Source of the DNA: Negaprion brevirostris
Taxonomy: Eukaryota
DNA: 64,000 bases
NCBI GenBank assembly: GCA_030324005.1
Contig: JARDVH010000059.1
Coordinates: 94,755,309-94,819,308 of the forward strand
Direction of reading: 5' to 3'
Shown: positions 7,952-56,359 of the stretch, piece after piece
Position numbering within the stretch: the stretch's first letter is position 1
How the letters are laid out: every line of letters begins with the position of its first letter
Position numbers and translations under genes: made by a program
Notes under the pieces: model-generated
Told to the model about the DNA's origin: nothing
The model's database searches: none
Seen by the model: the letters and a program-made list of their open reading frames with translations, nothing else

Positions 7952-8005
7952 ATGGCAGAGGGCGGTCATCGTCTTTCTCTTGTACGTCCCCCTATTACTT
8001 TTTAA
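7952..8005 (+). CDS. AUG-initiated 17-aa uORF (MAEGGHRLSLVRPPITF*)
   Basis: ATG 7952 (ttt-ATG-g), open to TAA 8003-8005, 2 nt before the uCC AUU. Confidence 0.6.
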   Translation: MAEGGHRLSLVRPPITF

Positions 8006-8007
8006 AA

Positions 8008-8061
8008 ATTCCGCCTAAAAAGAGAAGACGCTTTACCAAATCTTTTGGGCCGTTATCTCAC
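8008..8061 (+). CDS. AZIN1 uCC non-AUG uORF, part 1 (AUU start; IPPKKRRRFTKSFGPLSH)
   Basis: AAA-ATT-CCG context; peptide matches the recalled vertebrate AZIN1 uCC N-terminus (IPPKKRRRFTRLFGPLSH); phase-0 donor. Confidence 0.92.
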
Positions 8062-26812: not shown

Positions 26813-26920
26813 GGCAGAATTTCTGTTCGGGTGTATAACAATTATCCAGAAGGTCTGGGAGTAACACTCTACAGAGAACAGTTCGACTTTAACGCCGAGC
26901 CACCTTGGGACCCCAGCTGA
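26813..26920 (+). CDS. AZIN1 uCC uORF, part 2 (GRISVRVYNNYPEGLGVTLYREQFDFNAEPPWDPS*)
   Basis: Acceptor ttttacAG|G, phase 0, joins part 1 in frame to give 53 codons; ends with the hallmark NAEPPW-x-PS-stop, followed by a second stop TAG. Confidence 0.93.
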   Translation, partial: GRISVRVYNNYPEGLGVTLYREQFDFNAEPPWDPS

Positions 26921-36992: not shown

Positions 36993-38216
36993 TACCATTT
37001 ATTAAAGTAAACATTTGAAATTCTTCACCCATTTAAAGTTGCTTCAATATAGGATATTTAAATGTAACAGTTACAAAAAATCTGTGCACAAAAGCATCCT
37101 ATATGTAGACAATGTAATGGCATACTAAATTCATATATCAGCTACTGCATTTGTGAGAATCTTTTCATGGAAAAAGTATGTTTCTGCAGCCAGCTTTTAG
37201 ACATTTCCAATCAAACTATCATTCAGCCATTTAACGGTAGTGTTTTATTATCTGACAAACAATTGGAAATCTTTAAAGGAACATTTGTATTGCTTATCAT
37301 TTTAACCATTAAAATATATTAGTTTGTGTTGTAATTGTTAAATTCACAAGTGAATTTGGACTTGATTTGATTCTTGAATCAACAAGCTGTGTGCAATAAT
37401 GCATTTTATTCATGCATATTAGTTGAGAAGAATAGCATTGTTCCAGTTTTCTGTTCCATTAGATTGGTTATGTCCAGGTTGGGAGTTCTTAGATAAGCTT
37501 CCCATTTCTATTAATTTTCCATTCCTCCCTTTCCATTGAGGGTAGAATAAATAATAGGAGACTTTGTTCTTTGTACATTATTAATGGACAGAAAATTGGG
37601 AGTGCCATAAATCTGACACACTGACCACCTGATTAGATATCTGACTTGCACTACTGTCGAGTGACATTCTATACTAGGTGCAGTGCCTGCTTTTTCAGAC
37701 TTTGGACTGGAGCGCCTTGAATGTGTGAACTTCCTCCTCTGCTTCTCTGTGAATGCACGTGTGCTATCTAGCTACCTGGAGGATCACAGTTCAGAAACAT
37801 CCCATCCTTTTCTAGCTGGCATTCATTGAATTGTAGAATGGCTGCAGCGCAGAAGGCCATTCAGCCCACAGATTCCATGCCACCTCCTCAAGAACAGTCC
37901 AGCTTGTTCCATTCCCAAACTTTCTCTATATCAGTGCAAATTATTTTCCTTTGTGCGCTTGTTTCCAAAAGGTTGTAGGTAATCGTTATTTGGTCAGCGG
38001 AATCTAATTAATACAGCAGATTGGGAATCAAACCTATTTACAATCAAGCTGCACATTATGTCAATTAGTTGAGCCATCAGACTGTTTTATTTCAGCAGTC
38101 ACTGTTCTGAACAGTCACCGTGAAGAGTGACATTTCACATTAATAAAGCCAGATTAGTGTGCAGTACTTTCTCATTTTAATTAGAAACTAATATTTCTCT
38201 AATTTCTTAATTATAG

Positions 38217-38393
38217 CAAACTGAAAGGAATGCCTTCTTTGTTGCTGATCTTGGGAATGTTGTAAAGAAGAACATTCGCTGGAAGAATGTGATGACACAC
38301 GTGAAACCATTTTACACTGTTAAGTGTAACAGCAGTCAATCAGTAATTGAAGTTCTGGCAGCTCTTGGAACTGGTTTCGCTTGTGCAAACAAT
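38217..38393 (+). CDS. AZIN1: AZIN1 exon 4: [13 protein letters not shown]...[10 protein letters not shown]...[13 protein letters not shown]
   Basis: ODC-family PFY.VKCN motif with AZIN1-type T and GFAC (ODC GFDC); acceptor ttatAG; weak donor AAT|GTGATC. Confidence 0.92.
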
Positions 38394-38550
38394 GTGATCA
38401 TTGCTATGTTCCCTTGCATTAATTTTGTTAAAATTTAAATTACATGGATCTTTAAATTGTTAACGAAAATCACGTAGTGAATTGGCAGATATAAAATCAC
38501 AGCGCAATATAAGCTCACGTGTCTAATAACTTGTATATATCCTCACACAG

Positions 38551-38723
38551 AACGAAATAACTCTTGTGCAAAGCTTGGGTGTAACATCTGAAAATATCAT
38601 CTACACAAACCCATGCAAGCAAGTATCCCAGATTAAGTATGCAGCCAAAAAGGGAATAAATGTCATGAGTTGTGATAACAGTGCTGAACTTCTGAAAATT
38701 GCACGTAACCATCGTAGTGCCAA
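38551..38723 (+). CDS. AZIN1: AZIN1 exon 5: [11 protein letters not shown]...[17 protein letters not shown]...ARNHRSAK
   Basis: [12 protein letters not shown] motif; acceptor cacAG, donor AA|GTAAGT (phase 2). Confidence 0.95.
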
Positions 38724-40819
38724 GTAAGTGTCAAATGAACCAACATTTGTAGTATAGATTGTTTCACATTTAACTGGAATTTTTTTCCTCCATTGTGGTG
38801 CTGATTGGACAGTACATTTCATTGATCAAGTTATCTATTAGATTTTAACCAAAAGTTGGGTCATAACTTGTCCTTTCAAACCATGAGCTTCCTTTGTATA
38901 TGGGCATAAATGGATTTATTTGTTATGGGGAAGTTTCAGTCAAAGATATCTCCTTGCTCTCCTCTGGCTTTTCACCTTAAATCAAAATTCTAATGTTTTT
39001 TTAAACTGGACCCTCTAAACATTTGCCTTGCATGTATTGCATGGTTTGTTTGTAGATGTCTTTCATTTCTTTGTCAGCATTTTATACAAGCTGACAATCA
39101 AGTTCCTTCGCAATAAAATAATTGCCCAGAACCATGTTCCTGTTTCTAAAGTCAAAGTTTATGAATTAATTTGCTGCGTGTAGAACCAATAATTTCGCCT
39201 TTTACACAGCATAATAAATGATCTTATTTGTGCTTTAAATTTTTATAATCCAAACCTTTGATATTCTGGTCTGATATTTACCAGCAAAGAACATGACTAA
39301 GTTGTTAGAAATTGCTATAATGCTTAGAGTAGCTTCAGCAGTAATTTTTTTCTAGCTTGCATAAAAACAAATATTATCTGGTAAATTAACTAGCCATTTG
39401 ATGTTCGTGAAAGAAAGCCAGAGGAGTGAAACATGTATCACACTAAGACAATGTTTTTGAATGGAAGTGTAAGTTTCCCCATAGAGATTCTATTCTGGTC
39501 TATACCAGGATGTCAGCTTGCTTTCATGTTCTCAGTATTTACAGGCAGTAAAAATAATTATGATGTCTAGAATCTGAATCTACATAGAACCTGAACCACA
39601 TTGTGCAATACAAAAAAAACACTGAAGGTGCTGAAATAAGGACATAAAATGCTGGAAATGCTCAGCATGTTCAGCTGCATCTGTCGGTCGCGAAACTGTT
39701 AACCTTTTAGGTCAATGGCCCTTTTTTTGGTGTTACAAGAATTTGGAGATGTAAATGAGTTTTAAGCCATTATGGAGGCACGGAAAGTGGGGTCAGATAG
39801 CAAGCCTGCTCCACCATTCAGTATCTAATGAGCCCTCTCTGTACCACTTCAAATGCAACTATGTCCTTCCTTAACTATGAAAGTCAAAGCCACACTGTTT
39901 TCCAGGTGTCTCTCCAGACTTTTTTATTTTTGTACCCCAATCCCTTTGCAATAAAGGCCAACATGCTATTTGCCTTCTCTCCTNNNNNNNNNNNNNNNNN
40001 NNNNNNNNNNNNNNNNNNNNNNNNNNNNNNNNNNNNNNNNNNNNNNNNNNNNNNNNNNNNNNNNNNNNNNNNNNNNNNNNNNNACCAGTGCCACAGTAGA
40101 GAAGTTAATCAGTGATTGACCATGAAGCCTTTGGAATATGAATAGATGTTGTGCAATACGCAGTGGAATCATTGGCTCTGAATCTTCCTGGAAAGTTCAG
40201 TGCCAAGGCAGATGTCAAAATCAGCATTGTTTGTTGCATGAATGAATTTTCCAAACAATTTGTATGATGTAAAATTCACTGCAGTACAAGGCACGTTGTC
40301 AATTTTTGCCTTTGTTCTTAAGGATGGAATGGAGACTGCTTTTCTTTTCCCCTATATGGTTATATTCCTTTTCAGAAAAAAAAGGACGATATAATGATTT
40401 TGTCTGCAATCTCAATAACTCTGCAGCTGATAATATAGCCTCTTGTACACGAATCTTAAGTCAGGCTTTGGAATGCCATAAACACTTTTTCTCAGCTAAC
40501 GCTTGGCAATGGCACATGGGTGTTAAGCATTTTAGAACTGAATTAAGAGATAACGGATAATGTTGCATTATCTAGACAGTCCATATCAAACAGGGAAGAC
40601 TCCCTCCTCAGGCCATGAAACTGATTTAGCTTAGACTAAGTTTACCTGTAACCAAATCTTCAAAAATGCTTGTCTGTATATCTGTGAGAGTGAAAGGTCT
40701 CCTCAAATTTTGGATTACTTCAAATTTAATTTAAATTTAATTTGAATTTCTGAAATTCCTCTTGATTTCTAATGATAGGCAGGTAGTGTAGGAAGCTTTT
40801 AAGGCTATCTTGTTTTCTA

Positions 40820-43390
40820 ACCATTTTTTCCATTTTGAGTATGATGGTGACTGAGGTGATTTCTCAGAATTGTAGCAAAAGCCAAGTTTGTGGCCCCCCA
40901 TGTGGCTCAGCTGTGCAGGAGGGGAGGAGGAGGAAGAATGGAAGTGCTATAGTGGTAGACCATTCCAAAAGGGAACAGGCAATCATTTCTATGGCTGTAG
41001 GCAGTAGATGTGACTGCAGGATGATATGTTTCCTCCCTGGTGCCAGGACCAAGGATGTCACAGAGCAGCTGCAGGACGTTCTTTTGGGGGTGAGGGGGAG
41101 GGTAAACAGTCAAATGTAATGGTTCACTTTGACACCCCAACATAGACAGGAAAAGAGATGAGGTCCTGAAAGCAGATTTTAGAGAGGGAGGAAATTTAAA
41201 ACCAGGGCCTCCAGAGCAATGATCACAGGATTACTCCCAGTGCCACATTCTAGTGAGCATAAAAATTGGAAGATTTAGCTGTTCAATATGTGGCTGGAGA
41301 AATGGAGTAAGAGGAAGGGCTTCAGATTTCTTTGGCATTGGGACCAGTTCTGGGGCAGGTGGGATCTGTACAAGAAAGAAATGTTGCACTTTAACAGGGT
41401 TGGGGCTCTTGGAGAGGATTTAAACTTGATTGGAAGGGGAATGGGAACCTGACAAGAAATTCAGAGCAAAGAGGAGAAAACTGGCAGTGGAAAGTTGAGA
41501 AGTATTAACTGATACGGAGGATGTATCCAAGAGTAGCATCCAAGTAAATGGAATAATAGTATTGCTATTAACAGACCTGCCTCAAAGAAGGGCAGGACTG
41601 GGCACTAAATACAACTAGCTATGAGGTGTTTAGGAAAAAAGGTGTGCAGCATTGATTAAAGATAGTATTATAGTATTGGAGAGAGAGGAAGTTCAGAGGT
41701 TAAGGATGGAATTTCTGGCTAGAGGTAAGGGATGAAAAAGATACAATAACATTGATGTACTCTAATAGACCACCAACTTGTGGAAGGGTGCAAAGAAACA
41801 AATCTGCAAAGAAATTAGAGGTGCAGGGAGTAATTATAATGGGGGGACTTCTGTTATCCAAATACAGACTGGGATAGGACTGGTGCAAGAGGAGTGAATG
41901 TACCTGAATATGCTCAAGATAATTTTCTGCAGCAGCGTGTTTCCAGTGCAGTGAGAGGACAGACTCTGTTAGACCTGGTTCTGGGGGAGACAGTTGGCTC
42001 AAGTGAATCAGGTATCCATGGAGAGCTTTTAGTGAACAGTGACCATTGTTTTATAAGGCTTTTGTTGACCATAGAAAAGGATAAGGAACAATCCAGAGCA
42101 GGATTAATTAATTGAAGGAAAATAAACTTTGGGATCAGAATGTACCCAAGTCGTTTAAGTTGAAATCAAACGTTGGCAGAAAGGACAGTGGCTGAACAAT
42201 GGGCCATCATCGAAGAAAAAGTATTGTAGGCAATGTCAAGGTATTTCGCTTCAAAGAGGAAAATTAGAACAAATAAATCCAGAGCCCATGGATGACGAGA
42301 GAGGTACAGGTGAATATAAAAAGGAAGAAGTGCATGTGTGACGGGCATCGATAAGCAGTACCATGGAAAATCAGGTTGAATGTAGGACTGGGGCAAGTGA
42401 AATAGTAAGAAGTTAGGAGAGAGCATCAGAAGAGACTTGCAGCTAACGTAAAAGGGAATCTCAAGGTTTTCTGTAAGCATATAAATGACGAAAAGGTGGC
42501 AAAAGAGAGAGTAGGGCTGATTAAGGATATAAAAAAGGAGACTTGCAAGTGGAAGCAGGAAAAATAGTGGAATTATTAAACAAGTGCTTTGCATCTGTCT
42601 TTACAAAGGAAGAAGATGCCAAGGTGAGAAAGAAGATAACTGGTATTCAAAGAATTTGCAATTGAGAAGCAGGTGATGTTAAAATAGGCAGGAACCAGGA
42701 CTGGATGAGATGCATTTAAGGATGCTGAGGGAAGTAAGATGGAAATTGAAGAAACACTGATGATAATCTTCCAGTCTTGGACATAGATGGTGCCAGAGGA
42801 CTGCAGAAAAGTGAATGTCACATCCTTGTTCAAAAACGGGTGCAAGGGTTAAGCCAACAACAACAGACCAATCAGTTTGACTTCGGTGGTAGGGAGTTAA
42901 GGCCAGTAACTTTATTAAAGATGTCATGTTAAACTTGTATAAGGCACCAGTTAGGCCTTATCTGAAGTACTGTCCAGTTCTGCATACTTTTCTTGAGAAA
43001 CCATGTGAAGGTACTGAAAAGAATACAGAGATTTACAAGAATCATTCCAGGGATAAAGGCATGTAGCCAAGAGGATAAATTTGAGAGGTTGAATCTGTTT
43101 TCCTTGCAGAAAAGAAGGCTGAGAGGGGATGTGATAGAGGCATTCACGATCCTGAGGGATATGGACAGGATAAATAGTGAGAAACTGTTTCACTGAGGAG
43201 AGCATCAAAAGGGTGCCAATTCTTTCTGCAAGGGTGATGGAGTCAGTTTTTGAGGTATTCAAAACATAATTGTTATCTGAAAAGAAAGAATTTGCAAGGG
43301 TAAGGCAAGGGAATGGGACTAAGTAGAATGCTGTTTCAGAGAGCCAGTGCAGACTCGGGCCTAATGGCTGGCTTCCTACACTAAAGATTC
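40820..43390 (+). mobile_element. CR1-like LINE, degenerate ORF1 esterase and ORF2 with deletions
   Basis: CFLPGARTKDVTEQL, QTLLDLVL and KRRLRGDVIEAF remnants. Confidence 0.8.
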
Positions 43391-43496
43391 TGTGAATCGT
43401 AGAGCTTAAAAGAAATTGTAAACATTTTTTGGTACTGATATTTTCTCTTTAAATCCTTGGTACATAATTAACTCTCTGCTGTTCCTCCTTTATGAT

Positions 43497-43673
43497 GTGG
43501 AGATGCCAACATTGGACTTGGGTGGGCACAGTAAGAAGTGGCACCACANNNNNNNNNNNNNNNNNNNNNNNNNNNNNNNNNNNNNNNNNNNNNNNNNNNN
43601 NNNNNNNNNNNNNNTAATCATTCCAAATAAACCTGTTGGACTTTAACCTGGTGTTGTGAGACTTCTTACTGTA
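43497..43673. mobile_element. Short Penelope insertion with inverted ends and target-site duplication
   Basis: Inverted tail copies around a gap; TCCTCCTTTATGAT (43483-43496) versus TCCTGCTTTATGAT (43674-43687). Confidence 0.6.
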
Positions 43674-46600
43674 TCCTGCTTTATGATATTCCTTAAAGTC
43701 TATTGTTTGGTCAACTGTCTTACTATCTCTTATGTGGCTCAGTGTCACGTTCTGTTTCATGTTCTTACGAAGCACCTTGGGACATACCACTGTGTTCAGG
43801 GAGTTACATTGAAAGCTACTGTTGCAGCCCATTATCGGTTTTTATGATTCTGCNNNNNNNNNNGTCCATCCGCAAAAGAACAACACTGAAATGACCTTTT
43901 CAATTACAGAACTTGAAATAAAGGTCAAAACAGTTTTTATGACCCTCTCCGCCCAAACCACTGGGTTAAGTAGAGTGCTGGAGATACAGATTGGCCTGTT
44001 AAACCTGCAATTATTTTTTCAAAAGATGGCATTTTTTTAACATATCTCAGTTCACAACTTCTCTGAAAGCACAGACAAACAGAAAACAAAGTCACCATTT
44101 GAATCTTAGACTGTGTAGCACAGTCGTGCTATTTATCACTTTTCTTGTTACTATAAGGCTTTATTGAATTGATACAACAGCTTGGGTGCCAGTAAGTAGC
44201 TGTTATCACTGTGTTGTCGAGTCTAGATTCTGTGGTTGAGATTACACAGCCGGACAGGCTGGTCTTTGTGTTCAAAGTTTAGATAACTGTTCGTTAGAAA
44301 AATAATCCAAATGGAGAAAATTTCATGAATATTTTACTTTTAAATCACAATTTACAAAAATTATTTGACCCACAAAAACATTCACTCTAGGAAACTCCTG
44401 GTGCAGGCTTTGTACTAAGGGGGTTACATCCATTTCTCTTTGCTTTCTCAGTGGATAGATGATCAATCGTGGTATGTGACGTACTGCTCAACTAATAGGA
44501 TGGGGACTATTATAATTAAACATACAGCACCCCTAAGCGTACCAACTTTTTTTTTACCATTGGTACCATGCATGTGGTATATGTCTCTGCATTTTAACAC
44601 TGCTGTACATTCATCGCTTCTTGTCAATTCTGCATTTTTAATAAGGACCTGTATACTCTGGTGTTAATTTAAAACAGCTGCTTAAATTAAAAGAAAATCC
44701 TAGGTTGTGTTCATTTTAATACTGTTTTTAAAAACAGTCTGCTACAGCATTCCAGCTATGATTTATTTTTTTTAAATACTTTTTTAACCTGATTTGGTCT
44801 CCTAACTCTTGTCACAAGAATCAGATCTTCTCCTGGAAAGATGAAGGTGCCAAAATTTCATGCTTTGCTCCAAGACTTTGTTATATTACATGGCAACCAA
44901 TAAGAAAAGGTTTGCAGGTGGATATTTGCCTACAATGCCATAGTGATCACAGACACACTTAAATCTTTAATATTATTGCCACATTCATCCTTGAAGTATG
45001 CAAAGTATATATTCATATATATGATCCAAATCAAAGGAGGAAAAGGCCTAGGAATTGAATTTGCTTTTTGTTTTTCATGCAGAAAATGGCATTGGAAGTG
45101 CCACTACAGCTTGCACAAGCTCCTTTGTGCCAGAAAAGCACTGTATATCAAATTGATTGGAGTACTCAAGAATCATAGAGTACCTGCTTGAAACTAGAGT
45201 TCAGCCCATTGCCTTTAGAGAGCTGAATATTTATTTTAAGTCCCGTTACTGGATCAGGATATACTCAGCATGCTGTGTTCAGTTTTCTCCAGTAAAGCAG
45301 CCAAACCAGCAATCCTTAAGAGACCTCTGGAGGCTGTCATCAAAAAGGCAGGCAAAAATAATTTTACCACCTGAATATGAAGCCAGGGAAGCAGGAGTCC
45401 GATTTTCGGACACTAGTTTTATTTGAATATTTTGATTGTACCTCTGTGAAAATGTTCTTTTTGAATTTGAAGTTAATTGTATTAGTGCTACTCAGCCTGT
45501 TTTATGCTGCCCAAAACTGGCTGTGCTGTGAAGTTCTCTAGCTTTGCTGGATGTCCTTGACGCTTCTGAGTAAAACTATTTGTAACTGTGGCCTGTTTGT
45601 GGCAGATAAATGTTTCAGAATTGGACAGTGAGTTGCTAGGTAATACTGAAAACATAATGTGCATTGTAATATTGTAAAATAATTATACTTCCAAAGCCAA
45701 TGAAAACAATCTTGGGTGTGAAGCAATCTGTCAAACTTTCTGTTAGAAGTTACATTTTTGCTAAGACTTCTAAAGCACATTCAATGAAAGCACAATAAAG
45801 AAGTGTGGAAAAGAAATTACTTGAAGGTATGGTTTGTGCTGAGATACAGTTGCAGAAGTGAGGCATCGGAGGTCTGTAAACATCCATTCTGCATGTGGAG
45901 ACTGTGCAGTACTCTGGTCGGCATCTCCAAAATCCAATAAAGTTTGGATCTCCTGTGCATGTGCCAACTTGGAAAGAGCCACACAGGCATGGTTTACATA
46001 TTTTACATTAGCCATGACCAATGGGATTTAGAGCTGAAGGCCAAGGTCCCAAATGCCTGCACAAAAAGTGAAAACTGAAAAAGGGGACACAAACCCTGGG
46101 AGAAGCAAGAGATACAGGGAGAGGTTTAAAACAAAACAAGCAAGAGGACAGCCTGAAGTTTAAAAACAAAGCAAAGGGAAGAAGACAGAAAATAGAAGAT
46201 GTATCTCAAAAAATGTTTCTAGTATAGTGATGTGCCATGACGTATAAAAGATTGGGAACTACTGGTGTGTAGATAGTTGTTTGGTGTGGTGGAACATTCC
46301 CTGCCAAAACTGAGGTACGAATGACCTGTTGCCTTGGCTAAAATAAACTGATATGAGCAGGAGTTTTAATTGCCTGGGGCGGGTGGGTGGGGTGAGTAAT
46401 TAGGTCAGCACTATTGTTGCAGTATTAGCAAAAGTTGGACAAAATGAGAAACAGTTGTCCAAGTTTGTTTTTTAATTGGAAGAACTGTCTCTAATTGAAT
46501 GTCCCAGTGTTATTAAATGGTCTTTTGTTACAGCACCTAGTCAACTCTATTGATGNNNNNNNNNNAGTCTTGGCTTGCTGCACTTTTTCTTCCCTTCATG

Positions 46601-46805
46601 TCCTGTACAACATATGTAGCTACACATCTAGGCCCTAATCACCAGTTTTCTCTCCTGTGCAGGATTTTCTTTTTATTTAGGTTCACATTCCGAGCTTGGA
46701 AGTGGGAGCTCCTGCCACCATAAACTTCATGCTACTGACAGTCTTCAAGCTGCACATGTGATGATGATGTAAACCAACTGTGCCCCAATCATCTTCCTCT
46801 TTTAG

Positions 46806-46940
46806 GCTCTTGATAGACATTGCAACTGCTGATTCATGTGAAGAAAATGAGATGAGTCTGAAGTTTGGAGCCACTTTGAAGGACTGCAAGCATCTGTTGG
46901 AATCTGCAAAAGAAGTAGGAGTTCAGGTGGTTGGTGTCAG
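46806..46940 (+). CDS. AZIN1: AZIN1 exon 6: LLIDIATADS...SLKFGATLKDCKHLLESAKEVGVQVVGV
   Basis: KFGATL motif; acceptor ttttAG, donor AG|GTGAGC; phase matches exon 5. Confidence 0.93.
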
Positions 46941-49960: not shown

Positions 49961-51730
49961 CCTTCCTTATGTTTGAACCCTCAGGTTACTGACTCACCCA
50001 TCAGTGGAAACAGTTTCTCCTTATTTACTCTTAAAAGCCATCTAAATTTGCAACACTTGCGTTACGTCTCCCTCTAATTTCCACTTCTCTGAATAGTTTC
50101 TACCTCTGTGGAAATATAGCTTTGAAACACGTGGACAGCATACAGAAAGCTGTTTTTAATCCAGGGTGCCTTTCTCTTTGCATTGACCCCAAAATGTGCT
50201 GAAGATAAGAACAAAGGCATGGTAAGGGAAGTTAGAATCATAAAAAGGATATTCAGAGTTTGCTTTGCGTTTCATGCAGAAAAGTCTAAAGTTGTAGTGG
50301 TTAAAAACCTCACTGTTGATATGGGACCTGTAAACATAGCTAACAATCAATATTAATACCTTGTCTCACAATTAATTGTAGCGTCCATTTAGCACACCCA
50401 AATTAAAATTGTAAGCCTGTAAAATTTTGCTGTTGGTTCTTGACAGTTTCATAATATTTGGTTTTGAGGGGTATGGTTTCAATATCAGCTCCAACATTCC
50501 TCCTAAGTTGCACATTCCCCTGGCAATCCAAAAGTCCTTGTGCAGACCACGTACGAGTCAATCTCTTTAAATTAACTGTGCTTGTGTGGCAACATTAAAG
50601 AACATTTAAAAGTGCTGGACAATTGATGAAGTTGCCCACGCGCTCCAAAATAAATTAGGGGGAACATTACTCAGCGCTGAAATCACTTTTATGTCGATGG
50701 TTTATGTTCCGGGTTTTCAGTACACCTCTACCTCACTGTTGCTAGTATTGACAATTATAGTGTGTCTACTCTAATCACTTAATTAATGGAAGAAATTGCT
50801 GCAAATATTAAACAATGTTAATATTTGCCTTATTCACCTGGTACGTAGCTCTAATTTTGAACCTTTTGCCATGCAATCCTAAAATCACTATAAATTGTAT
50901 CTTCAGTCTGCCAATCAAATTAGCTGACTTCAGNNNNNNNNNNNNNNNNNNNNNNNNNNNNNNNNNNNNNNNNNNNNNNNNNNNNNNNNNNNNNNNNNNN
51001 NNNNNNNNNNNNNNNNNNNNNNNNNNNNNNNNNNNNNNNNNNNNNNNNNNNNNNNNNNNNNNNNNNNNNNNNNNNNNNNNNNNNNNNNNNNNNNNNNNNN
51101 NNNNNNNNNNNNNNNNNNNNNNNNNNNNNNNNNNNNNNNNNNNNNNNNNNNNNNNNNNNNNNNNNNNNNNNNNNNNNNNNNNNNNNNNNNNNNNNNNNNN
51201 NNNNNNNNNNNNNNNNNNNNNNNNNNNNNNNNNNNNNNNNNNNNNNNNNNNNNNNNNNNNNNNNNNNNNNNNNNNNNNNNNNNNGATGTTAGAAATTTGT
51301 TTGCATCACTACATAATTTATCCAATAGAGGGTGCTGCTCTCGTTGGTTCCTGTTGATTTACTAAATTGAGTGTCAGTTATGTGTTAATGGATCACCTCA
51401 CATTGCCCATATTAAGTGCAATACTTAGTAAGAATATAGCAGCACATCTTGTGATGTGTTAGGGTCCCTGCTTTTGGCAACTGAACATGTGTTTTGAAAT
51501 TTTTTCACTCCTGTTTATTGTCACAATCGGAACCAAATTGGTTCATGACATTGTAAATGACTCCCAAACAGACCATGTTAAAATGTCTCATTCAGTCTTT
51601 ATCATGTCATAAGATCCTTTTTTCTCCATTTTAATCTTTTATCTTTGTGTGCCATCTTACAGGAAAATACAATTTACAAAGAAAAATAGATTCTTAAAAA
51701 ATCCCTGATTTCAACTGTTCTCTGTTATAG

Positions 51731-55229: not shown

Positions 55230-56099
55230 CACAGTAAGAAGTCTCACAACACCAAGTTAAAGTCCAACAGGTTTATTTGATAGTAAACGCCACTAGCTTT
55301 CAGAACACTGTTCCTTCATCAGGTGAGTGGAGNNNNNNNNNNNNNNNNNNNNNNNNNNNNNNNNNNNNNNNNNNNNNNNNNNNNNNNNNNNNNNNNNNNN
55401 NNNNNNNNNNNNNNNNNNNNNNNNNNNNNNNNGTCATTGATAAAGGCAAACATCTCACTAGGGCCATCCCCACACTCCAACTTATTGCCTTCAAATAACC
55501 ACACAAGCTCAAACAGATCATTGTTCACAGCCTTCAGGAGAGCAGTGATCACAACATCACACAACTCTGCCACAGCAACCTCTGCAAGAAGTGCACTTCA
55601 GCGGTCACGGGCATTTGACCTCTGATCTTTGGGTAAGCGTTCTCCAACACAGCCTTCATGTCACATGACAGTGCAGAGTCACTGAGCAGAGACTGGTAGC
55701 CAAGTTCTGCATGAGGACGGCCTCAACCAGGATCTTGGGTTCATGTCACGCTATCTGTAACCCCCATAACTTGCCTGAACTTACACCATCTTACTGTCCT
55801 GTCTGGAGACAATACACATCTCTTTAACCTATGCTTAATGCTATCTCTACTCATGTTGTCTGCACCTTTAAGACTTGAATAGCAGATTAGCTGTAAAGAC
55901 TCATATTCTAATCAGTATTCTGAAAACTGCGTGTGCCTTTATATGCCCTGTTTATGATCAGAACTCTCCACTCACCTGACGAAGGAACAGCGTTCCAAAA
56001 GCTAGTAGCGTTTACTACCAAACAAACCTGTTGGACTTTAACCTGGTGTTGTGAGACTTACTGGGTTTACCCCAGTCCAACGCCAGCATCCCCACGTAA
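55230..56099 (+). mobile_element. Penelope-like insertion with inverted 5' pLTR copy and 12-bp TSD
   Basis: CAAATGCATGAA at 55218-55229 and 56100-56111; 55230-55332 is an inverted copy of about 55965-56068. Confidence 0.8.
55291..55325 (-). ncRNA. Minimal hammerhead ribozyme motif (antisense to AZIN1)
   Basis: Minus strand reads CAC-CTGATGA-A-GGAAC/agt/GTTCT-GAA-AGCT-A-GTG. Confidence 0.55.
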
Positions 56100-56147: not shown

Positions 56148-56359
56148 AAACCTAATTCGGGGGAGCCTGTGTTTGCCAGCAGCCTGTGGGGACCATCCTG
56201 TGATGGGCTTGATCAAGTTGTGGAACACTGTCTCCTACCTGAACTAAGTGTTGGTGATTGGGTCATCTTTGAAAACATGGGAGCATACACATTGGAGCAG
56301 TCTGCTTTCAGTGAGTTCCAGAGGTTACCAGTTTACTGTGTGATGTCAATCAGCGATTG
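56148..56359 (+). CDS. AZIN1: AZIN1 exon 11: [48 protein letters not shown]...SDW
   Basis: WGPSCD and GDW..F.NMGA motifs; acceptor ctttAG, donor TG|GTAAGT. Confidence 0.95.

What the first reader, a model, noticed from the sequence alone, without database searches (positions are those of the whole stretch)
46633..46805. Candidate poison 5' extension of exon 6 whose premature stop follows Pro-Pro
Seen: upstream of the normal acceptor (46805) lie a branch-like CCCTAAT (46633-46639) and two strong acceptors, ttttctctcctgtgcAG (46662) and ttttctttttatttAG (46680), 18 nt apart and so in the same frame. Joined to exon 5 (phase 2) they read K-(IFFLFR)-FTFRAWKWELLPP-TAA (46721-46723), 217 nt before the next junction, which is NMD geometry. 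The other two frames are closed by TGATGATGA (46759-46767) and TAA (46770-46772). Known (recalled): mouse Azin1 has polyamine-regulated NMD isoforms from a 5'-extended internal exon, and PP motifs and termination are eIF5A/polyamine sensitive. Inference: a second, splicing-level polyamine circuit in which PP-stop tunes termination/NMD or yields a truncated protein covering the N-terminal antizyme-binding region. PP close to a stop recurs in the AUG uORF, the uCC and this extension.
Basis: partly seen in the sequence, partly recalled or inferred. Interest (0 to 1): 0.72.

Follow-up and report, generated by a model that had tools for sequence, protein, structure and literature searches.

The report
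Ancient poison splice switch in AZIN1
In a shark's antizyme inhibitor 1 gene, the end of one intron holds a strong extra splice site and a stretch still shared with a bird, so it is likely the shark version of a known mouse switch that would send part of the RNA to destruction when polyamines are high; the Pro-Pro just before the stop is probably incidental.

Summary
Observation confirmed; known kind. The gene is shark AZIN1. The acceptor at 46662 has a branch-like A at -24 and outscores all 8 real acceptors scored (3 of 1,662 intronic AGs reach it). The one at 46680 is ordinary (66 of 1,662). Either gives PP-TAA 217 nt before the next donor.

The last ~55 nt of the extension are conserved with a sparrow gene model that reads this intron (score 63, background maximum 41). 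Three teleost copies lack them. Mouse has a polyamine-favoured premature-stop variant keeping about one third of the protein, and a published table lists a 152-nt NMD-stimulating alternative acceptor in Azin1 (PhastCons 0.96; exon not pinned here). The shark extension is 143 nt.

No junction read was seen. The Pro-Pro-stop idea has no conservation support: no peptide hits, a shark-bird frameshift, and a back-up stop five codons later. PP before a stop is rare by chance (0.25%). The scan noted the same switch earlier in a chimaera genome (e1-9272854).

Verdict: likely orthologue of the mouse Azin1 poison acceptor (0.7); PP-stop tuning about 0.1.

The parts
46633..46639 (+). Predicted branch point of the upstream (poison) acceptor; A at 46638 is -24 from AG 46662 and -42 from AG 46680
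   Evidence: sequence; generic branch-point score 3.23, equal to the best at real acceptors 38216 and 38550
46646..46662 (+). Strong alternative 3' splice site (pyrimidine tract, CAG|G); would extend the exon by 143 nt
   Evidence: score 8.1, reached by 3 of 1,662 intronic AGs; higher than 8 real acceptors; use not observed
46664..46680 (+). Weaker tandem acceptor, same frame, 125-nt extension; probably minor
   Evidence: score 2.1, reached by 66 of 1,662 AGs; branch A at -42
46663..46805 (+).
   Evidence: products of 172 or 166 aa instead of about 460; GC 0.43 against 0.34-0.35 in flanking intron
46715..46723 (+). Pro-Pro codons and premature TAA, 217 nt upstream of the next donor; back-up in-frame TGA at 46736
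46733..46739 (+). Candidate distant branch point (A at 46738, -67) of the productive acceptor, followed by a 56-nt AG-free zone
   Evidence: score 3.39; best candidate within -44..-15 scores only 1.15; AG-free zones of five other real acceptors are 23-37 nt; inferred
46751..46805 (+). Deeply conserved 3' part of the extension (shark-bird), conserved as nucleotides rather than as one reading frame
   Evidence: P0225 (Spizella passerina, NXX71466.1) N-terminal 19 residues: score 63 ending at the acceptor; 8 of 10 identical at 46751-46780 and 5 of 9 from 46783 in another frame
46806..46940 (+). Constitutive 135-nt exon (LLIDIATAD...), productive acceptor at 46805
   Evidence: same intron position in vertebrate AZIN1 proteins
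38551..38723 (+). Upstream exon supplying the phase-2 donor
7952..8005 (+). AUG uORF in the leader, ending RPPITF*
   Evidence: context only
26813..26920 (+). Second half of the AUU-initiated uCC (ATT at 8008), ending EPPWDPS*
   Evidence: context only

Best explanation
This is likely the shark orthologue of the mouse Azin1 poison acceptor: an upstream 3' splice site that would compete with the productive one, add 143 nt carrying a premature stop, and is predicted to send that share of AZIN1 mRNA to nonsense-mediated decay, probably more so when polyamines are high. Shown: gene identity, acceptor and branch-point anatomy, stop geometry, conservation of the last ~55 nt with a bird, absence in three teleost copies. 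Inferred: use of the acceptor in shark, NMD, polyamine response, identity with the mouse event, and that the conserved stretch (distant branch point, long AG-free zone) sets the balance between the two acceptors. The Pro-Pro before the stop is probably incidental.
For: AZIN1 identity: 95% to Hemiscyllium AZIN1 over exon 5; exons mapped. Acceptor 46662 is in the top 3 of 1,662 intronic AGs and above 8 real acceptors, with a branch A at -24. Stop lies 217 nt before the donor, and all 8 upstream AGs tried give a stop 127-217 nt before it. A bird intron-reading model matches at the acceptor with score 63, against a maximum of 41 at 127,936 other positions and 46 for 100 shuffled peptides. A mouse premature-stop variant lacks almost two-thirds of the protein and rises with polyamines (PMC4458265 passage citing Murakami 2014); the shark products keep 166-172 of about 460 aa. 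Mouse Azin1 has a 152-nt alternative acceptor, NMD-stimulating, PhastCons 0.961, among CHX-responsive events (PMC11188260 Table S4). 22 of 413 stored proteins from mammals, birds, turtles and a frog start at the first Met inside this exon, as expected of models whose upstream frame is broken (ambiguous). Weak hint: exon 4-5 contigs of three RNA-like runs all end 29 letters past 38724, the pattern expected if a second path enters the next exon.
Against: No junction 38723/46663 or 38723/46681 was observed. The exon of the mouse 152-nt event could not be pinned from coordinates. Murakami 2014 itself is not held. Deep conservation rests on one bird gene model and covers only 46751-46805, not the upstream acceptor. 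AZIN1 was not found in the supplements searched of three human NMD studies or of the polyamine-splicing paper. The contig-end hint is equally explained by unspliced RNA, and the exon-6-Met isoforms by exon-5 skipping. The splice scores are crude generic matrices.
Confidence: 0.7

Rival explanations
1. The extension is used, and in addition its Pro-Pro-stop makes termination sensitive to eIF5A and polyamines, so that NMD efficiency is tuned at the ribosome.
For: PP directly before a stop occurs at 15 of 5,974 stops. Both acceptors share the frame. The same mRNA carries PP near the stops of the AUG uORF and the uCC; PPW stalling in the uCC is polyamine-dependent (PMC9082881 passage). eIF5A aids termination, and a final proline has been reported to slow it (PMC5499558 passage).
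Against: 0 hits for the 34-residue frame among 1.84 billion representatives. No truncated AZIN1 with a similar tail among 6 short hits or 413 stored proteins. The shark-bird match is frameshifted and stops 30 nt short of the PP codons. Back-up stop at 46736. In yeast the eIF5A-dependent stop pause was independent of proline; in C. elegans loss of a polyamine transporter left NMD intact (PMC13578949 section 8). The motif was chosen after the fact (1.5% for a broader class). Recalled, unverified: the mouse truncated product is about 154 aa, which would stop only about four codons into the extension.
Confidence: 0.1
2. The conserved stretch serves the productive acceptor only (distant branch point and regulator-binding zone, or a decoy that delays removal of this 8-kb intron), and the upstream acceptor is little used in shark.
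For: The demonstrated conservation lies between the -67 branch candidate and AG 46805; that acceptor has no good proximal branch point and the longest AG-free zone. No junction was seen.
Against: The upstream acceptor scores higher than every real acceptor tested and has an ideal branch distance; mouse uses an alternative acceptor of similar reach.
Confidence: 0.13
3. The point of the isoform is a truncated 166-172-aa protein that binds antizyme.
For: The product keeps the N-terminal third, which includes the antizyme-binding stretch (position recalled, not tested); a review says the mouse truncated form's significance is open (PMC6313458 passage).
Against: NMD geometry; the tail is not found conserved; no such protein among those fetched.
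Confidence: 0.04
4. Chance intron sequence.
For: Three closed frames, a branch-like heptamer (5.4 per kb) and a 46680-grade AG are all common.
Against: The bird match at the exact acceptor far exceeds background; strength of 46662; the mouse event.
Confidence: 0.03

Closest known systems
Mouse Azin1 premature-stop splice variant (Murakami et al. 2014, PMID 24077669; the name Azin1-X and '5'-extended exon 7' are recalled; paper not held)
   Same: Same gene; premature stop leaving about one third of the protein; alternative acceptor with NMD geometry; extension 143 nt against a 152-nt mouse event.
   Different: Shark has a second tandem AG in frame and a 19- or 13-residue tail ending PP; use, NMD and polyamine response are untested here; the exon of the mouse 152-nt event was not pinned.
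SAT1/SSAT polyamine-regulated unproductive splicing (Hyvonen 2006, seen only as a passage and reference in PMC7846877)
   Same: Polyamine-pathway gene controlled by splicing coupled to NMD.
   Different: Cassette exon rather than alternative acceptor, and favoured at low rather than high polyamines (recalled).
AZIN1 uCC PPW ribosome-queuing switch (PMC9082881 passage)
   Same: Same mRNA; PP motif close to a stop.
   Different: The uCC is a conserved peptide acting on start-site choice; the extension shows nucleotide-level, frameshifted conservation and no conserved PP tail was found.
Polyamine shielding of U2 snRNP SF3 proteins (PMC12999471, passages)
   Same: Offers a route by which polyamines could shift branch-point and 3' splice-site choice.
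   Different: AZIN1 occurs neither in its main text nor in the 4 supplementary files searched; the link is my inference.

Membership tests
Azin1 NMD-coupled alternative acceptor (mouse variant) | Gene is the AZIN1 orthologue | tested here: met
   (TVKCNS, GPSCD, uCC with PPW)
Azin1 NMD-coupled alternative acceptor (mouse variant) | Credible upstream acceptor whose use truncates the protein to about one third | tested here: met
   mouse size from passage
Azin1 NMD-coupled alternative acceptor (mouse variant) | Stop more than 50-55 nt upstream of a downstream junction | tested here: met
   217 nt
Azin1 NMD-coupled alternative acceptor (mouse variant) | Extension sequence conserved with tetrapods | tested here: met
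   3' part only, one bird model; mouse PhastCons 0.961; absent in 3 of 3 teleost loci
Azin1 NMD-coupled alternative acceptor (mouse variant) | Same exon and same acceptor as the mouse event | tested here: inconclusive
   152 against 143 nt; mouse exon coordinates not obtained
Azin1 NMD-coupled alternative acceptor (mouse variant) | Junction present in RNA | tested here: inconclusive
   contigs only, 15 of 327 joints shown, repeats crowded the tables
Azin1 NMD-coupled alternative acceptor (mouse variant) | Isoform stabilised by NMD block and raised by polyamines | not testable with these tools
   needs treated shark cells
Polyamine/eIF5A-sensitive stalling peptide (uCC type) | PP or PS motif at or near the stop | tested here: met
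Polyamine/eIF5A-sensitive stalling peptide (uCC type) | Motif conserved as a peptide across species | tested here: inconclusive
   0 hits, but NMD tails are rarely annotated; the bird model does not reach the motif
Polyamine/eIF5A-sensitive stalling peptide (uCC type) | Polyamine-dependent ribosome pause at the motif | not testable with these tools
   needs reporter or ribosome profiling

The most novel reading that the evidence does not exclude
AZIN1 carries a jawed-vertebrate-wide, two-stage polyamine sensor in one intron end: polyamines shift U2 from the distant-branch-point productive acceptor to the strong upstream one, and the Pro-Pro-stop then makes termination eIF5A- and polyamine-sensitive, so that decay of the poison mRNA is itself metabolite-tuned; teleosts lost it.
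Probability: 0.1. Interest if true: 0.75.

Novelty: new member of a known kind. Interest (0 to 1): 0.37.

Why it matters
The mouse variant was described once, and its cis-elements are not defined in anything I could read. If this is its orthologue, the switch dates to the shark-tetrapod split, which argues for function rather than splicing noise. The shark-bird comparison narrows the regulatory sequence to about 55 nt between a distant branch-point candidate and the productive acceptor. That gives a small natural reporter for asking how polyamines steer 3' splice-site choice, and teleost copies give a natural negative control.

Tried and rejected
RNA evidence: no RNA holder listed on record (14 runs guessed as RNA hold 0.22-0.53 of the words). 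Laying contigs of X1, X3, X14 and X20 on 38200-46750 gave no cover of the last bin in the three RNA-like runs and no listed joint to 46663 or 46681; the tool filters records and showed 15 of 327 joints, so this says nothing either way.

Protein searches for truncated isoforms and for the PP-stop frame found nothing relevant. The turtle 326-aa isoform's 26-residue N-terminus does not come from this element (best score 34 against background 32).

Related loci: none in genome contigs or viral contigs; metagenome contigs gave three teleost-type azin1 loci and one unrelated hit, L005, which I dropped. RNA structure: z between -0.37 and +0.94 in six windows. A GT at 46769 as a donor was rejected because it leaves a 37-nt intron. 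No second DNA copy in G000.

Papers not held: Murakami 2014, Ivanov 2018, Dever and Ivanov 2018. Supplements without AZIN1: PMC12999471, PMC7347940 (only AZIN1-AS1), PMC8091538, PMC8233366 (one file unreadable; tables may use other gene IDs). Unreadable: PMC13651330 supplements and two files of PMC11188260; these could bear on the human and mouse event. The recalled 154-aa length was not found. No paper on a shark AZIN1 poison acceptor appeared in searches (open-access library only).

Full report
Gene and setting. The window holds one gene on the + strand, antizyme inhibitor 1 of a cartilaginous fish. The exon at 38551-38723 is 95% identical to Hemiscyllium AZIN1. tblastn of two stored proteins places coding exons at about 29665, 38217, 38551, 46806, 51731, 52305, 53567, 56148 and 56630. 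The exon for residues ~200-225 was found neither in the window nor elsewhere in G000 and probably lies in the gap at 50934-51284. AZIN-type motifs (TVKCNS, GPSCD) and an AUU-initiated uCC ending EPPWDPS* are present. The intron in question follows K153; the same position shows in vertebrate AZIN1 proteins, some annotated isoforms of which skip the following 45-codon exon in frame.

Observation. Every element is at the stated place. With a crude generic matrix the acceptor at 46662 scores 8.1: 3 of 1,662 intronic AGs of the gene body reach that, and the 8 real acceptors scored range from 1.1 to 7.9 (two more were mis-positioned in the script and not scored). Its branch-like A is at -24. The acceptor at 46680 scores 2.1, reached by 66 of 1,662. 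Closure of all three frames is expected: 36 of 46 tiles of 143 nt from the same intron are closed. Use of either acceptor gives 172 or 166 residues and a TAA 217 nt before the next donor. A second in-frame stop follows at 46736, and all 8 upstream AGs tried lead to a stop 127-217 nt before that donor. The poison effect does not depend on the PP-TAA.

Conservation. No vertebrate genomes could be searched, but one stored protein gave a view into a tetrapod intron. P0225, a partial chipping-sparrow model (NXX71466.1), begins with 19 residues, FTCADDVNQLPQSSSPSLR, in front of the exon-6 peptide. A frameshift-aware scan of both strands of the window put its best match exactly at the canonical acceptor: score 63, against a maximum of 41 at 127,936 other positions and 46 for 100 shuffled peptides anywhere. 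Eight of 10 residues are identical at 46751-46780 and 5 of 9 from 46783, in a different shark frame. The last ~55 nt of the intron are thus conserved between shark and bird as nucleotides, not as a peptide. The match ends 30 nt short of the PP codons and says nothing about the upstream acceptor. Three teleost-type azin1 loci show no similarity in this intron (265, 53 and 56 of 300 shuffles reach the observed score; L002 holds only 203 nt of it). An earlier AI note of this scan reports the same intron end conserved and carrying an extra acceptor in a chimaera; I did not see that DNA.

Anatomy of the competition (inferred). The productive acceptor has no good branch candidate within -44..-15 (best 1.15) but a strong one at -67 (3.39), followed by a 56-nt AG-free zone; five other real acceptors have zones of 23-37 nt. 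The conserved stretch fills that zone. The simplest model is two complete 3' splice sites in series, with the conserved stretch holding the signals that set their ratio. No stable RNA fold stands out (z -0.37 to +0.94).

RNA. Only assembled contigs were available. In three RNA-like runs from three organisms the exon 4-5 contig ends 29 letters beyond 38724 (table 8). In a 31-mer assembly graph that is where a contig ends if a second path joins at the start of the next exon. The letters were not printed and unspliced RNA would do the same, so this is a weak hint. The alternative junction itself was not seen. Among 413 stored proteins, 22 (9 mammal-type, 9 bird, 3 turtle, 1 frog) start at the first Met inside this exon. 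That fits transcript models with the extension but also exon-5 skipping, and the 413 are not a random sample.

What is known. Murakami 2014 is not held. Passages of three papers report it: multiple mouse Azin1 splice forms, one truncated, pattern affected by polyamines (PMC7846877; PMC6313458), and polyamines raising a premature-stop variant that lacks almost two-thirds of the protein, with DFMO doing the opposite (PMC4458265). That size points to this junction. One supplementary row of PMC11188260 (Table S4, CHX-responsive events correlated with expression) lists Azin1 chr15:38497643-38497794, type alternative acceptor, NMD-stimulating, 152 nt, PhastCons 0.961 over the 200 intronic nt before the acceptor (definition). 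I could not pin its exon. AZIN1 was absent from the supplements searched of three human NMD papers and of the 2026 polyamine-splicing paper, which counts mildly against a prominent human event. For the remaining hits I saw search listings only.

The Pro-Pro-stop. It is rare by chance (15 of 5,974 stops; 91 for a broader class) and sits in an mRNA that uses PPW stalling in its uCC (PMC9082881 passage), so it cannot be dismissed. But a 34-residue query of that frame found 0 relatives among 1.84 billion representatives, no truncated AZIN1 with such a tail was fetched, and the conserved part is frameshifted. In yeast the eIF5A-dependent pause at stops was independent of proline (PMC5499558 passages), and in worms loss of a polyamine transporter left NMD intact (PMC13578949 abstract and section 8). 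I recall a 154-residue mouse product, which would stop about four codons in; I could not confirm this. I put the PP-tuning idea at about 0.1.

Verdict. A real, old, likely regulated poison acceptor: the probable shark orthologue of a known mouse switch (0.7). New here are the shark-bird conservation limited to about 55 nt, the distant branch-point candidate and the absence in three teleost copies. New member of a known kind; interest 0.37.

Noticed in passing
window 38391-38551: RNA-like contigs of three organisms join 38391 to 38549 (ends AT..AC), reading N-K-N as the chondrichthyan proteins checked do, whereas the window's GT-AG reading gives N-N-N. Most likely relatives have AAG|GT and the window has T at 38393 (allele or assembly error) with a weak donor; the 5' end is not U12 consensus.
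   Followed up: partly
window 38217-38393: Ray isoforms of 399 aa (P0005, P0006, P0009) skip this exon in frame, in keeping with a weak donor.
   Followed up: no
window 46806-46940: In-frame skipping of this 135-nt exon is annotated in sturgeon, a bat and a deer (P0064, P0102, P0105), another sign of a regulated acceptor.
   Followed up: no
window 50934-51284: The exon for residues ~200-225 is missing from window and genome searches and probably lies in this N gap.
   Followed up: partly
window 7952-8005 and 8008-8061: AUG uORF ending RPPITF* directly before the uCC's ATT; the shark uCC also begins with a PP (IPPKK).
   Followed up: no
stored proteins P0227-P0237 (turtles, 326 aa): Eight turtle models join a 26-residue N-terminus of unknown origin to this same exon; it does not match the shark window.
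   Followed up: partly
window 43490-43672, 55231-55332, 55966-56059: Very high-copy short interspersed repeat; an inverted pair of 94 nt flanks a gap just upstream of the exon at 56148, a possible double-stranded RNA near the region edited in mammals (editing position recalled).
   Followed up: no
window 51662: Another high-scoring AG (6.5) about 70 nt upstream of the exon at ~51731.
   Followed up: no
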